A stretch of 11,496 nucleotides of DNA from Octopus sinensis. Lineage: Eukaryota. The stretch lies in contig NW_021826986.1 in NCBI RefSeq assembly GCF_006345805.1, forward strand, positions 1 through 11,496. The letters are read 5' to 3'. Shown here piece after piece: positions 1-11,496 of the stretch (positions within the stretch are counted from its first letter, which is position 1; each line of letters starts with the position of its first letter). The notes under the pieces are model-generated. The model was not told the DNA's origin and did no database searches. It worked only from the letters and a program-made list of their open reading frames with translations. The position numbers were made by a program, and so were the translations under genes.

Positions 1-304
1 TAACTGTCTCGTGAATCTATTATGCAAATTAGCCGGGAAGATGTGTGCATATATTATAGAAAAATCTCATGACATACACATACACACAGACACAAAAGTA
101 CACATATGGACAGACACACACAAGTGAACACTCAGGCACGATTTTACATTTATTACTGGGAGGAAAAGAGCATCAAATATACAGTTAAACCAGCCAGTTT
201 GTTTATTTACTGTGATGTTTCGTATTAAGTTGTGTTCGCCATAGAATTAATTCTAAAGTAAATACGGGCAATAAATAAAATACTAATAGAAACACAAATG
301 ATAC

Positions 305-384
305 TAACAATAATAACAAAAATAATAATAATAACAATAATAATAATAATAATAAGAAGAAGAAGAATGACAATAATAATAATG

Positions 385-430
<46 letters not shown>

Positions 431-488
431 CGATAATAATAATGATATAATAATACAAATAATAATAATTATTATAATAATAAAATAA

Positions 489-519
<31 letters not shown>

Positions 520-725
520 TAATAATAGTAATGATATAATAGTATAATAATAATAGTAATAAAAATAAAAAAATAAAAGTGATAATAATGATAATAATAA
601 TAATGATAATAATAATAATATAATAATAATAATAATATTAATAATATAATAATAATAATAATATAATAGTAATGATCATATTAATAATAATAATGATAAC
701 AATAATAATAATAATAATGATAATA

Positions 726-766
<41 letters not shown>

Positions 767-792
767 AATAATAATAGTAATGATAATAATAA
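305..792. repeat. Long imperfect (TAA)n trinucleotide microsatellite with (AAG)n and (TGA)n sub-blocks
   Basis: Direct reading: ~490 bp of TAA units, a short AAG run near 352-368 and a pure TGA run near 727-765. It explains the poly-Ile and poly-His ORFs. Confidence 0.97.
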
Positions 793-1189: not shown

Positions 1190-1340
1190 GAAATATATGC
1201 GTCAGAACATATGTATGCATATACATACATATATACATATGCACAAATATATATATATATATATATATATATGCATATATATATATATATATGGGTGTGT
1301 GTGTATGTATACATATGTGTGTGTGTGTTTGAGTATATGT
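1190..1340. repeat. Compound (TA)n/(TACA)n/(TG)n microsatellite
   Basis: Direct reading. It runs straight into the 3' half of a family A SINE, like the internal microsatellite of the full copies. Confidence 0.9.
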
Positions 1341-1498
1341 TTGTGTTTGTCCCAACATCCCTTGACAAGCAAAAGAGACTGATTGAATAAGTACCAAGCT
1401 TACAAAGGATAAGCCCCGGAGTCAATTTGTTCGACTAAAGGCAGTGCTCCAGCATGGTTGCAACCAAATGACTGAAGCAAGTAAAAGAATAAAAGAAT
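1338..1498 (+). mobile_element. SINE family A, 3' half only, with an internal deletion of about 40 bp
   Basis: GTTTGTCCCAACATCCCTTGACAA...GAATAAGTACC...TTCGACTAAAGGCAGTGCTCCAGCATGG...AAATGACTGAAGCAAGTAAAAGAATAAAAGAA aligns by eye with 6455-6652. It lacks the CCGATGGTGG...TTAGCGGTT segment. Confidence 0.9.
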
Positions 1499-2180: not shown

Positions 2181-2397
2181 GTTACATATTCAGGGAGACA
2201 AAACAGACAGAGAGATAGATATATATTCATGTATGCATGTGAATCTTTCTCTTACTTTCAGCGTCACAGGTTTTAGAGATGTATATGTTCGCCTATATGT
2301 GTTTCTTTGTGCGTGCGTGTGTGTGTGTGTGTGTGTTTTTGTTAATATACTAGATATCATTACTTCTGGAAGAATGAGCTATTACAAAGCGTGCAAT

Positions 2398-2415
2398 ATT
2401 ATATAGGATATATTA

Positions 2416-2471
<56 letters not shown>

Positions 2472-2484
2472 TGTATGTATATAT
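2398..2484. repeat. (TA)n microsatellite flanking repeat family C copy 1; TA resumes at 2690-2721
   Basis: Direct reading. Confidence 0.95.
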
Positions 2485-2689
2485 GGGGGGAGAGTTTACG
2501 AAAAAAAAACAAAAGACGAAGATAAGTGGTATACAAAATAAACAGATGTATTAGTATAACGCTTAGGAATTGAAAAAGTCTTTTACGTTTCGAGCCTACG
2601 CTCTTGTACAGAAAGGGACACAGAAAAAAGCAAGGATAGAAACAAGGAGAGAAAAAAGTGTGTGTAGTGGCTACCGATCTATCATGGCG
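2485..2689 (-). mobile_element. Repeat family C copy 1: short non-autonomous element, probably derived from a Penelope-like element terminal repeat, containing a hammerhead motif
   Basis: Near-identical to 3172-3371 (e.g. AAACAGATGTATTAGTATAACGCT and AGGAATTGAAAAAGTCTTTTACGTTTCGAGCCTACGCT). It sits within (TA)n and has no pol III boxes. The Penelope assignment is inferred from the hammerhead type. Confidence 0.75.
2580..2615 (-). ncRNA. Minimal type I hammerhead ribozyme-like motif, copy 1 (variant core)
   Basis: Minus strand reads CUUU-CUGUACA-A-GAGC-GUAG-GCUC-GAA-ACGU-A-AAAG. Stem I is CUUU/AAAG, stem II is GAGC/GCUC, stem III is the palindrome ACGU and the cleavage triplet is GUA. It deviates from CUGANGA at positions 6 (U) and 8 (C). 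Confidence 0.65.
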
Positions 2690-2721
<32 letters not shown>

Positions 2722-3171
2722 ATTGAGAGAATTAAAATCTGGCGATCCTTTGCACAGTTGAAACAACTCGGTCACTGTAAGCAACTGACGCTTCTATTCC
2801 TTCAATAAATATATATGCTCTACACAGGTTCCGCGTTGAAGACGCCGTATTGCGTATTATACTAGTAGCCAGTATCCCCTACTATACAAGTGTGTTCGTG
2901 TCGATATGTTTGTTAGACAATACAGTAGGCAGCTAGTTACAAATTATTTATGTAACACTTTTATTTTGGGGGATTATTAAAATAGTATACCCCGATTTAT
3001 ACATATCTGAAACTCGTCGCCATAATTTAAAATTTAGGGTGATGCTCGATAGACTTTGCATCCCATAACGTTGATTAATACGAAGCGGTGAAGAGTGTAA
3101 TAAATACGTGAGTCTGTGTGTATATATTCATGTACATGTCAGTGTCAGTGTTGTGTGTATATGTATATATA

Positions 3172-3371
3172 GCGAGAGTTCACGAAAAAAACAAAAAACA
3201 AAAAAACAAAAGACGAAGACAGGTGGCGTATAAAACAAACAGATGTATTAGTATAACGCTCAGGAATTGAAAAAGTCTTTTACGTTTCGAGCCTACGCTG
3301 TTCTACAGAAAGGGACACAGAAAAAAACAAGGAGAGAAAAAAATATTTGTAGTGGCTACCGATCTATCATG
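3172..3371 (-). mobile_element. Repeat family C copy 2 (hammerhead-containing, Penelope-like-derived)
   Basis: Direct repeat of 2485-2689. It differs by an expanded (AAAAAAC)n block, absence of the duplicated CAAGGA.AGAAA unit, and scattered substitutions. A TA/TG run abuts its left side. Confidence 0.75.
3277..3312 (-). ncRNA. Minimal type I hammerhead ribozyme-like motif, copy 2 (variant core)
   Basis: Minus strand reads CUUU-CUGUAGA-A-CAGC-GUAG-GCUC-GAA-ACGU-A-AAAG. The core is CUGuAGA (only position 6 deviates) and the first pair of stem II is a C-C mismatch. Confidence 0.68.
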
Positions 3372-5267: not shown

Positions 5268-5694
5268 GGCGCAGCAGTAGCTGTGTTGTAAGTAGTCTGC
5301 TTACCAACCGCATGGTTCCGGGTTCAGTCCCACTGCGTGACACCTTTGGGAAGTGTCTTGTAATATAGCCTTGGGCCGACTAAAGCCTTATGAGTGGATT
5401 TGGTAGACGGAAACTGAAAAGAATCCCATTGCGTATATCTGTATACATGTGTGTGTGTGTGTGTGTGTGGTGTGTGTGTGTGTGTGTGTGTATGTTTCTT
5501 GCGTGTCTGTGTTTGTCCCCGCCCCATCGATTGACAACCTATGTTGGCCTGTTTACGTCCCCATAACTTAGCGGTTTGGCATAAGTCACCGATGGAATAA
5601 GTACTAGGCATATGAAAAATACGTCCTCGTGTTGATTGATTTGTTCGACTAAAAGGCGGTGCTCCAGCATTATTGAAACAAATAAAAATAAAAA
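5268..5694 (+). mobile_element. tRNA-derived SINE family A, near full length, with internal (TG)n
   Basis: GGCGC start, A-box-like TAGCTGTGTTG and B-box-like GGTTCAGTCCC (5321-5331). A CORE-like CACCTTTGGGAAGTGTCTT follows. It is colinear with 6253-6652, has a short deletion in the tail after GCTCCAGCAT, and ends A-rich. Confidence 0.92.
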
Positions 5695-6252: not shown

Positions 6253-6652
6253 GAGTGGCTGTGTGGTAAGTAGATTGTTTACCAACCACATGGTTCCAGG
6301 TTGAGCTTCACTGCGTGCCACCTTGGGCAAGTGTTTTCTACTATAGCCTCGGGCCGACCAAAGCCTTGTGAGTGGATTTGGTAGACGGAAACTGAAAGAA
6401 ACCTGTCGTATATATATATATCTATATATGTGTGTGTATATGTTTGAGTGTCTGTGTTTGTTTCCCCAACATCGCTTGACAACCGATGGTGGTGTGTTTA
6501 CGCCCCTGTAACTTAGCGGTTTGGTAAAAGAGACCGATAGAATAAGTACTATGCTTGCAAAGAATAAGTCCCGGGGTCGATTTGCTCGACTATAGGCGGA
6601 GCTCCAGCATGGCCACCGTCAAATGACTGAAACAACTAAAAGAGAAAAAAGA
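6253..6652 (+). mobile_element. tRNA-derived SINE family A, near full length
   Basis: A box TGGCTGTGTGG (6256-6266), a decayed B box, CORE-like CACCTTGGGCAAGTGTT, internal (TA)n(TG)n at about 6408-6455, and 3' tail GCTCCAGCATGGCC...AAATGACTGAAACAACTAAAAGAG. Confidence 0.93.
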
Positions 6653-7403: not shown

Positions 7404-7791
7404 GGAATGGAAGCACTCCGTCGGTTACGACGACGAGGGTTCCGGTTGATCCGATCAACGGAACAGCCTGCTCGTGAAATTAACGTGTAAGTGGCTGAGC
7501 ACTCCACAGACACGTGCACCCTTAACGTAGTTCTCGGGGATATTCAGCGTGACACAGAGTGACAGGCCGGCCCTTTGAAATACAGGTACAACAAAACAGG
7601 AGTAAGAAGTAAGAGTGAGAAAGTTGTGGTGAAAGAGTACAGCAGGGATCACCACCATCCCCTGCCGGAGCCTCGTGGAGCTTTAGGTGTTTTCGCTCAA
7701 TAAACACTCACAACGCCCAGTCTGGGAATCGAAACCGCGATCCTACGACCGCGAGTCCGCTGCCCTAACCACTGGGCCATTGCGCCTCCAC
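7404..7791 (-). mobile_element. tRNA-derived SINE family D, full length, young, with a 10-bp TSD
   Basis: Minus strand has A box TGGCCCAGTGG (7769-7779) and B box GGTTTCGATTCCC (7724-7736) at tRNA-like spacing. The body is CpG-rich and ends in (TTCCA)2. Perfect direct repeats TCTTTGATAT flank it at 7394-7403 and 7792-7801. Confidence 0.93.
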
Positions 7792-8009
7792 TCTTTGATA
7801 TACTGAATATCGTTAGTTCATCCAGTATTATTAATATAAATAGGAGGATTGGTTCGAATCCATTTGGAAAATAGGTTAATTTGGGCTCCAGCAGAAAAAA
7901 AAAGAGCAAATTATAAAATATAGAATATAGAACATAAATTAATTTCTACGTTATTTATATTATAGAGAAAAAAAATGAAATTCTTTTTCCAATTAAACTA
8001 AATAAATTT

Positions 8010-8241
8010 ATTCTTATCTATTCTAGGCACAAGGCCCGAAATTGCGAGAGAGGGGGTCAGTTGATTAGATCGACTCCAGTATGCAACTGGTACTTAGATT
8101 ATCGACCCAGAAAGGATGAAAGACAAAGTCGACCTCGGCGGAATTTGAACTCAGAACGTAGCAGCAGACGAAATACCTATTTCTTTACTACCCACAAGGG
8201 GCTAAACATTGAGAGGACAAACAAGGACAGACATACGGATT
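8010..8241 (-). mobile_element. SINE family B lacking its A-box head, fused to a different 64-bp upstream segment (8178-8241)
   Basis: 8010-8177 is the reverse complement of about 11266-11430 (B box GAGTTCAAATTCC, GAGGTCGACTTTG, GGGCCTTGTGCCTAGA). Homology stops abruptly at GGTATTTCG. Confidence 0.9.
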
Positions 8242-8752: not shown

Positions 8753-8786
<34 letters not shown>

Positions 8787-8851
8787 ATTATATATTATAT
8801 ATTTAACATGTATATTATATATATTATATATATATATATATATAATACATA

Positions 8852-8905
<54 letters not shown>

Positions 8906-8930
8906 CATATATAATATATATACATATAAT

Positions 8931-8972
<42 letters not shown>

Positions 8973-8975
8973 TAC

Positions 8976-9024
<49 letters not shown>

Positions 9025-9062
9025 ATATATATATATATATATATACATACATACACACACGT
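8700..9062. repeat. Very long imperfect (TA)n microsatellite
   Basis: About 290 bp of almost pure A/T (8755-9045) with TG- and CA-rich flanks. Confidence 0.97.
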
Positions 9063-9491: not shown

Positions 9492-9614
9492 TTTTTTTTA
9501 CTCTTTTAGTTGTTTCAGTCATTTGACTGCGGCCATGCTGGAGCACCGCATTTAGTCGAGCAAATCGACCCCAGTACTTATACTATCGATTCTTTTGCCG
9601 AACCGCTACGTTTA
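9492..9614 (-). mobile_element. SINE family A, 3' fragment
   Basis: CTCTTTTAGTTGTTTCAGTCATTTGACTGCGGCCATGCTGGAGCACCGC...AGTCGAGCAAATCGACCCC is the reverse complement of about 6510-6650, with one internal deletion. Confidence 0.92.
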
Positions 9615-9987: not shown

Positions 9988-10203
9988 ATTGGTTTCCAAT
10001 TTTGGCACAAGGCCAGCAATTTCGGAGAGGGGATAAGTCGATTACATCGACTCCAGTACTCAACTAGTACTTATTTCATCGACCTCGAAAGGATTAAAGG
10101 CAAAGTCAACCTCAGCAGAATTTGAAATCAGAATGTAAAGACGGATGAAACGCCGCTAAGCAATTTGTCCTGCCTGCTAACTATTCTTCCAACTTACCGA
10201 CTT
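9988..10203 (-). mobile_element. SINE family B, full length but diverged
   Basis: Colinear reverse complement of 11218-11425 (GGCACAAGGCC...AGTCGATTACATCGACT...AAAGGCAAAGTCAACCTC...GAATTTGAA...TGCTAAC), with many CpG-type changes. Confidence 0.9.
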
Positions 10204-11148: not shown

Positions 11149-11217
11149 GGTATTTTCGCGTTATATAAAGATGGTTACAGATAGATAATAATGGTGTAAT
11201 ACTAGTGTGCCCCCAAA

Positions 11218-11432
11218 GGGCGGCGAGCTGGCAGAATCGTTAGCACGCCGGGCGAAATGCTGAGTGGTATTTCGTCTATCTACGTTCTAAGTTCAAATTC
11301 CGCCGAGGTCGACTTTGCCTTTCATCCTTTCGGGGTCGATAAATTAAGTACCAGTTACTCACTGGGGTCGATCTAATCGACTGGCACCCCCCTCCTAAAT
11401 TTTGGGCCTTGTGCCTAGAGTAGACAAAAAAC
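11218..11432 (+). mobile_element. tRNA-derived SINE family B, full length, with an imperfect ~19-20 bp TSD
   Basis: A-box-like TGGCAGAATCG (11229-11239), B box GTTCAAATTCC (11291-11301) and an A-rich end. It is flanked by AATACTAGTGTgcccCCAAA (11198-11217) and AATACTAGTGTactCCAAA (11433-11451). Confidence 0.93.
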
Positions 11433-11496
11433 AATACTAGTGTACTCCAAATCGTGTTCCGCTTTACTGAATGTCAGAAACTACAGGTGGGAGAAG

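What the first reader, a model, noticed from the sequence alone, without database searches (positions are those of the whole stretch)
2580..3312. Pair of minimal hammerhead ribozyme motifs, 697 nt apart in the same orientation, able in principle to form a dimer
Seen: on the minus strand both family C copies carry the consensus CUUU CUGUAGA A GAGC GUAG GCUC GAA ACGU A AAAG, with stem I, stem II, the GAAA box and a GUA cleavage triplet correctly placed. Known: hammerheads whose stem III is only a 4-nt palindrome (ACGU) are characteristic of Penelope-like retroelement terminal repeats and cleave as dimers. Inference: one minus-strand transcript over 3371 to 2485 would contain both partners. Cleavage at 3281/3280 and 2584/2583 would release a 697-nt RNA, a retrozyme-like arrangement. 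Caveat: each copy has its own lesion (G8C in copy 1, stem II C-C in copy 2), so this locus may be inactive, and the two copies may be independent insertions.
Basis: partly seen in the sequence, partly recalled or inferred. Interest (0 to 1): 0.8.

Follow-up and report, generated by a model that had tools for sequence, protein, structure and literature searches.

The report
Penelope hammerhead remnants with altered core
The two motifs are damaged tail ends of a very common Penelope-like jumping gene that most likely landed near each other independently, not a retrozyme; the less ordinary part is that this whole lineage carries U instead of the near-invariant A at position 6 of the hammerhead core, and whether it still cuts RNA is untested.

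Summary
Both motifs are present as described (minus strand, 3312-3277 and 2615-2580, 697 nt apart, lesions as stated). Each lies in a ~200-nt, 5'-truncated 3' end of a Neptune-type Penelope-like retroelement. The genome has 13,318 exact copies of the 27-nt core (control 0). Relatives link to an RT + GIY-YIG frame, and full elements carry the motif in both terminal repeats 4.3-4.5 kb apart. The hammerhead identity is supported: 34 of 36 columns are fixed across subfamilies, only N7 and H17 vary, and stems covary across families. The retrozyme reading is not supported: the spacer is single-copy, close pairs are common (11 of 68 loci), and copy 1's G8C core should be dead, so a double cut is unlikely. 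I found no U6 lineage in print, but could not read Lunse et al. Copy 5' ends cluster about 105 nt upstream of the cut site, not at it. The scan has reported Penelope minimal hammerheads in other genomes, none with A6U.

The parts
3172..3371 (-). Copy 2: 5'-truncated 3' end (pseudo-LTR remnant) of a Neptune-type Penelope-like element, A7 subfamily
   Evidence: 95-96% matches elsewhere in the genome; 94% to L177, which has RT/EN-homologous sequence upstream on the same strand
3277..3312 (-). Minimal type I hammerhead motif, copy 2: core CUGUAGA (U6 at 3305), G10.1C lesion at 3300, predicted cut 3281/3280
   Evidence: sequence; lesion private, 0 of 50 subfamily copies
2485..2690 (-). Copy 1: 5'-truncated 3' end of the same subfamily, with a 12-nt insertion that copy 2 lacks; starts at the family's 5'-end hot spot
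   Evidence: alignment; 5' end at -105 from the cut
2580..2615 (-). Minimal hammerhead motif, copy 1: U6 at 2608, G8C lesion at 2606, predicted cut 2584/2583
   Evidence: sequence; lesion private, 0 of 50
2722..3112 (.). Single-copy spacer DNA, not part of the element
   Evidence: only self-hit in the genome, 1 candidate; no blastn hit to three element copies and no tblastn hit of the ORF in the window
2690..2720 (.). (TA)n at the 5' junction of copy 1
   Evidence: Tandem Repeats Finder
2396..2484 (.). (TA)n at the 3' junction of copy 1, the family's usual flank
   Evidence: 81 of 90 young copies are followed by (TA)n

Best explanation
The two motifs are minimal hammerheads inside two truncated 3' ends of a high-copy Penelope-like retroelement that most likely inserted independently in TA-rich DNA and are likely dead at this locus. 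Shown: the parent element encodes RT, a C-x4-C-xx-C linker and a GIY-YIG nuclease, carries the motif about 105 nt from its 3' end, and in full partial-tandem copies has it in both terminal repeats 4.3-4.5 kb apart. Shown: the lineage has fixed U at core position 6 while keeping the rest of the core and the stems. Inferred: in active elements the two terminal motifs pair through the ACGU palindrome and cleave slowly if at all. Inferred: new copies are reverse-transcribed from RNA not yet cut at the 3' hammerhead, because they span it intact. Inferred: the ~200-nt solo copies arise when reverse transcription starts at the end of a terminal repeat and stops at a preferred point about 105 nt upstream of the cut site, possibly the RNA's 5' end.
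For: 13,318 exact motifs, control 0. 29 of 30 loci found by the nuclease protein alone have the motif 620-890 nt downstream. 22 of 23 loci found by upstream A7 sequence have the motif, and 8 of 23 have same-strand ORF homology. RVT_1 E 6.7e-8, above cut-off; GIY-YIG E 0.0013, below the curated cut-off. 4 of 6 long-ORF loci have the motif in both 96-99% identical repeats. 34 of 36 columns fixed across five groups, the two exceptions being N7 and H17. Covariation: 7 of 8 pairs change on both sides, score 0.447 against 0.204 shuffled and at most 0.14 slid. Spacer single-copy. 1 shared departure among 8+8. 11 of 68 anchor loci have another copy within ~1.5 kb, 7 same and 4 opposite orientation. 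Non-U at position 6 in only 474 of 13,792. U6 rows form one clade (96/93) with one nested A6 copy, beside two A6 clades. 5' ends: 28 of 90 young copies at -112 to -100, and 4 of 154 within 3 nt of the cut.
Against: No cleavage or RNA data for this family. The two copies are 92% alike, closer than most subfamily pairs: only 2 of 50 copies are nearer to copy 1 and 8 of 50 nearer to copy 2, so an old local duplication is not strictly excluded. Close pairs are about three times more frequent than a rough Poisson expectation (11 of 68 against about 6%), and 7 of 11 are in the same orientation. The covariation alignment was selected with a pattern that fixes the core and enriches for changes at one stem II pair, and its rows are related. 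The A7/G7 split used N7 itself. Neptune versus Nematis was not tested with a tree.
Confidence: 0.88

Rival explanations
1. One reading: the pair works as a dimer in one transcript and releases a 697-nt retrozyme-like, possibly circular, RNA.
For: Same orientation and correct geometry; dimer cleavage is the accepted mode for minimal hammerheads (PMC4209133); pseudo-LTRs are reported as the likely source of animal retrozymes (bioRxiv 2026.07.22.740005); some loci here do hold tandem units of 201-1,580 nt with a motif in each unit.
Against: Spacer single-copy; the unit is not repeated; both lesions are private; G8C kills a Penelope hammerhead, and release needs both cuts; animal retrozymes are tandem repeats of 150-450 bp with canonical hammerheads (PMC7229834).
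Confidence: 0.04
2. The U6 lineage has lost cleavage; the fold is kept for another role, such as RNA dimerisation through ACGU or binding of the element's protein, perhaps as a rod-like hairpin in which U6 pairs with A15.1.
For: CUGA-turn mutants show low activity in deep mutagenesis (PMC9901934); A6C cuts the rate strongly in Mg2+ (PMC7151607); the predicted minimum-energy fold pairs U4-G5-U6 with A15.1-C15.2-G16.2; copies span the site uncut and 5' ends do not pile up there; cleavage was dispensable for insertion in vitro in another Penelope element.
Against: The varying positions are exactly those a cleaving hammerhead tolerates: N7 takes all four letters and H17 is A, U or C but G in only 2 of 127 copies. 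G8, G12 and the GAAA box stay fixed. Old U6 subfamilies show compensatory changes in stems I and II (L302, L304, L303). The alternative helix shows no covariation.
Confidence: 0.3
3. The two copies come from one old local duplication rather than two insertions.
For: 92% identity, above the subfamily median of 88-90%; local tandem duplications of motif-bearing DNA exist elsewhere (L189, L191).
Against: No flanking DNA is duplicated; the 5' junctions differ; a 12-nt indel separates them; only 1 shared departure, which 8 of 50 other copies also carry.
Confidence: 0.08

Closest known systems
Minimal hammerheads (min-HHR) in pseudo-LTRs of metazoan Penelope-like elements (Cervera and De la Pena 2014, PMC4209133)
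   Same: Fits the published consensus U-rich / stem I / CUGANGAH / G..C stem II / GAAAN-palindrome-NUH / AU-rich: extra base after A9, G10.1-C11.1, palindromic 15.2-16.2; mostly solo truncated copies; both repeats of full elements.
   Different: Position 6 is U across the lineage. All 44 rows of the published alignment that I read (supplement part 2) have A6, and the three CUGU strings in that file lie outside cores.
Neptune clade of EN+ Penelope-like elements (as defined in Craig et al. 2021, PMC8557442)
   Same: RT then C-terminal GIY-YIG with two cysteines between the motifs, Cys linker, (TA)n targets, 5' truncation, partial tandems and inverted 5' copies.
   Different: Nematis shares the linker, and no tree against reference elements was built. 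The window holds only non-coding tails.
Non-LTR retrozymes of animals (Cervera and De la Pena 2020, PMC7229834; bioRxiv 2026.07.22.740005)
   Same: Two same-strand type I hammerheads a few hundred bases apart.
   Different: No repeated monomer, spacer single-copy, minimal not canonical hammerheads, both damaged.
Natural A6C hammerhead of phage Bcep176 (PMC3088659, PMC7151607)
   Same: A natural change at core position 6.
   Different: That is C6 in a single phage ribozyme, slow in Mg2+ and active in Mn2+; here it is U6, fixed in an estimated tens of thousands of copies, with activity unknown.

Membership tests
min-HHR of Penelope-like elements | Core CUGANGA | tested here: not met
   U at position 6 in both copies and in 13,318 of 13,792 exact family motifs; other core positions conserved in the family
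min-HHR of Penelope-like elements | Stems I and II supported by covariation, G10.1-C11.1, extra base after A9 | tested here: met
   for the family; copy 2 itself has lost G10.1
min-HHR of Penelope-like elements | Palindromic minimal stem III and NUH triplet | tested here: met
   ACGU; H17 is A 77, U 46, C 1, G 2, gap 1 of 127
min-HHR of Penelope-like elements | Located in the pseudo-LTRs of a PLE | tested here: met
   4 of 6 long-ORF loci with the motif in both repeats; 29 of 30 protein-found loci
min-HHR of Penelope-like elements | Self-cleavage as a dimer | not testable with these tools
   needs an in vitro assay
EN+ Penelope-like element (parent family) | Single ORF with RT and C-terminal GIY-YIG | tested here: met
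   1,009-aa open frame in L126; Pfam RVT_1 above cut-off, GIY-YIG just below it
Neptune clade | Cys linker between RT and EN; (TA)n targeting | tested here: met
   C-x4-C-xx-C; 81 of 90 copies followed by (TA)n
Neptune clade | RT groups with Neptune rather than Nematis | not tested
   no reference proteins fetched
Non-LTR retrozyme | Tandem monomers of 150-450 bp, each with an intact hammerhead | tested here: not met
   spacer single-copy; both motifs damaged
Non-LTR retrozyme | Expressed as linear and circular monomer RNA | not tested
   no RNA holder on record among 24 listed runs; no reads were laid

The most novel reading that the evidence does not exclude
A long-lived Penelope lineage replaced the near-invariant A6 of the hammerhead core with U once, kept it through many subfamilies and tens of thousands of insertions with compensatory stem changes, and still cleaves as a dimer, perhaps with altered metal preference as for A6C. 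This would be a new natural hammerhead core (CUGUNGA) that every CUGANGA-based search misses.
Probability: 0.25. Interest if true: 0.6.

Novelty: new variant of a known kind. Interest (0 to 1): 0.35.

Why it matters
The pair itself is ordinary transposon debris. The lineage-wide A6U gives a clean natural test of an open question, whether Penelope hammerheads need to cut at all: a young family with intact frames carries a core change expected to be harmful, yet keeps every other hammerhead constraint, and an A6 sister family with the same stem II is on hand as control. If U6 dimers cleave, current descriptors undercount ribozymes: here 609 matches for the A6 pattern with free stem II against 13,318 exact U6 motifs. 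If they do not cleave, selection is keeping the fold for a non-catalytic job.

Tried and rejected
Rfam scan: no hammerhead family among 97 hits. Single-strand folding: no signal. No ORF of the element in the window. No tRNA gene in the window. Metagenome scan for the motif: 0 matches, which says little for an animal repeat. Sequencing runs: no RNA holder listed among 24 rows, all kept as contigs; no reads were laid, so expression is open. A pile-up of copy 5' ends at the cut site, as genomic evidence of cleavage, was not found: 1 of 90 and 3 of 64 within 3 nt, about 2.5 expected from the local rate. A downstream GAGC that might pair with the 3' strand of stem II did not covary in L302-L304 and was dropped. 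L068 first looked like an A6 ancestor, but it nests inside the U6 clade and is more likely a back-mutation. The L126 row of the energy table picked the wrong stretch and was not used. L013's ORF hit is on the opposite strand and was not counted as a link. Lunse et al. (RNA Biol, short-stem-III hammerheads) is not held and may list a U6 variant.

Full report
Observation. The minus strand carries the motif twice, at 3312-3277 and 2615-2580, with predicted cuts at 3281/3280 and 2584/2583, 697 nt apart. Copy 1 has G8C and copy 2 has G10.1C. Each motif lies in a repeat copy of about 200 nt (3172-3371 and 2485-2690). The window is a whole 11.5-kb contig of a 2.72-Gb animal genome. Its repeats look cephalopod-like to me, but that is recalled and untested. 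Rfam gave no hammerhead among 97 hits, and folding z-scores are unremarkable.

The family. The 27-nt motif with N7 free has 13,318 exact matches, reversed control 0, with all four letters at N7. Of 64 copies picked by an anchor outside the motif, 17 hold the exact 27-mer, which suggests roughly 50,000 copies (a rough estimate). Copies share a fixed 3' end about 105 nt past the cut site, followed by (TA)n in 81 of 90 cases, and have variable 5' ends. Walking upstream from a U7 copy reached RT and GIY-YIG frames. Of 30 loci found with the nuclease protein alone, 29 have the motif 620-890 nt downstream. Of 6 long-frame loci, 4 have the motif in both of two 96-99% identical direct repeats 4.3-4.5 kb apart, and L126 has a 1,009-aa open frame with a C-x4-C-xx-C linker. 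For the window's own A7 subfamily, a query from upstream of the motif gave 23 other loci: 22 have the motif, 8 have same-strand ORF homology, and L177 is 94% identical to copy 2. By the features given in Craig et al. 2021 (PMC8557442; introduction and passages read) this is a Neptune- or Nematis-type element; (TA)n targeting points to Neptune.

Is it a hammerhead? In 127 copies picked without the motif as query (19 of 146 dropped because no motif could be located), 34 of 36 motif columns have the same commonest letter in all five groups, against 19 of 45 upstream and 39 of 84 downstream columns. The two varying columns are N7 and H17, and H17 is G in only 2 of 127. Caveats: two groups are the same subfamily, one split used N7, and flank alignment is noisy. 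A search forcing both partners of the second stem II pair to differ gave 142 matches (control 0); 23 of the first 30 are paired there. A homologous sister family has A6, the same stem II and a G-C in place of C-G in stem I, and old U6 copies show compensatory stems. On 46 motifs, 7 of 8 pairs change on both sides; the covariation score is 0.447 against 0.204 shuffled and at most 0.14 slid. These rows were pattern-selected and are related. The motif fits the published min-HHR consensus (PMC4209133; main text parts 1-2 and supplement part 2 read) at every position but one.

The missed feature. Position 6 is U. Only 474 motifs have another letter there, mostly C among the 100 listed, as expected from decay. 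In a 44-row tree of tails the 24 U6 rows form one clade (96/93) with one nested A6 copy, beside two A6 clades (midpoint root). A single origin of A6U is therefore the simplest reading. The A6 pattern with free stem II has 609 matches. Published data suggest that changes at position 6 are harmful: A6C is slow in Mg2+ but active in Mn2+ (PMC3088659 section read; PMC7151607 passages), and CUGA-turn mutants show low activity (PMC9901934 passages). I found no U6 lineage in listing-level searches for A6U, CUGUNGA and its four spellings, or for cephalopod hammerheads. An octopus repeat paper reports Penelope-like elements but never mentions ribozymes (PMC13282606 passages). Lunse et al., the largest catalogue, could not be read, and supplementary file 1 of PMC4209133 was not searchable.

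The pair. The spacer 2722-3112 is single-copy and has no element sequence. Each copy departs from its subfamily at 8 of 181 columns, and they share one departure, which 8 of 50 other copies carry; both core lesions are private. They are 92% alike, somewhat above the median, so a duplication is not fully excluded. Among the first 74 anchor hits on one chromosome (68 loci), 11 have another copy within about 1.5 kb, 7 in the same and 4 in the opposite orientation; L187 resembles the window, while L188, L189 and L190 are tandems; I did not classify the spacers of L137, L203 and L211. In the dimer model (recalled from Forster et al. 1988 and described in PMC4209133), each active site takes its CUGANGA, stem II and GAAA from one copy and the cut site from the other, so the lesions cannot complement. 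G8C abolished cleavage of an anole Penelope hammerhead (PMC11167929 passages). Site 3281/3280 should therefore stay uncut, and the 697-nt RNA needs both cuts. Retrozymes are tandem monomers with canonical hammerheads (PMC7229834 passages; bioRxiv 2026.07.22.740005 part 1 of 5), which this is not.

How the copies arise (inferred). Copies span the hammerhead intact, and 5' ends do not gather at the cut (4 of 154 within 3 nt). They gather upstream: 28 of 90 young copies at -112 to -100, and 32 of 64 A7/G7 copies at -108 to -87; both window copies start in that zone. This fits templates uncut at the 3' hammerhead, as reported in vitro for the anole element. The hot spot may mark a transcription start inside the terminal repeat, or only micro-homology with (TA)n.

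Verdict. The retrozyme pair is not supported. The lineage-wide A6U core is the one feature worth a bench test. Interest 0.35.

Noticed in passing
L307-L396 and L132-L226; window 2690 and 3371: 5' ends of truncated copies cluster about 100-112 nt upstream of the cut site at a GCCATG word in several subfamilies, giving a SINE-like unit of about 200-215 nt; it may be a transcription start in the terminal repeat.
   Followed up: partly
L287-L291, L294-L296, L299-L301, L306: Sister family with canonical A6, the same stem II, compensatory stem I and a homologous tail; it repeats 11 nt of stem II plus loop about 20 nt downstream of the cut site. No parent ORF was found (one weak hit in 12 loci).
   Followed up: partly
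L188, L189, L190, L191, L192: Tandem units of about 1,540-1,590, 522, 201, 662 and 1,137 nt, each unit with a motif (intact in all but L190); L189 and L191 include flanking DNA and look like local duplications or assembly artefacts, L188 and L192 hold inverted segments. These are better retrozyme-like candidates than the window pair.
   Followed up: partly
L126:2591-7897, L127, L128, L131: Young full-length partial-tandem elements, one with a 1,009-aa open frame; the family appears recently active (top 150 protein hits 93-100% identical).
   Followed up: partly
L228-L256: Several older minimal-hammerhead families with canonical cores and GGAC/GUCC-type stem II in the same genome.
   Followed up: partly
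window 1340-1497, 5276-5640, 6254-6650, 9493-9612; 8006-8173, 10000-10150, 11215-11435; 7406-7790: Other interspersed SINE-like repeats in direct and inverted copies; the last stretch is judged by eye and from a look-alike in L191; none was classified.
   Followed up: no
window 297-792 and 8755-9053: Long (AAT)n and (TA)n arrays; the Rfam microRNA hits in the window fall on such simple repeats and are below gathering scores.
   Followed up: no
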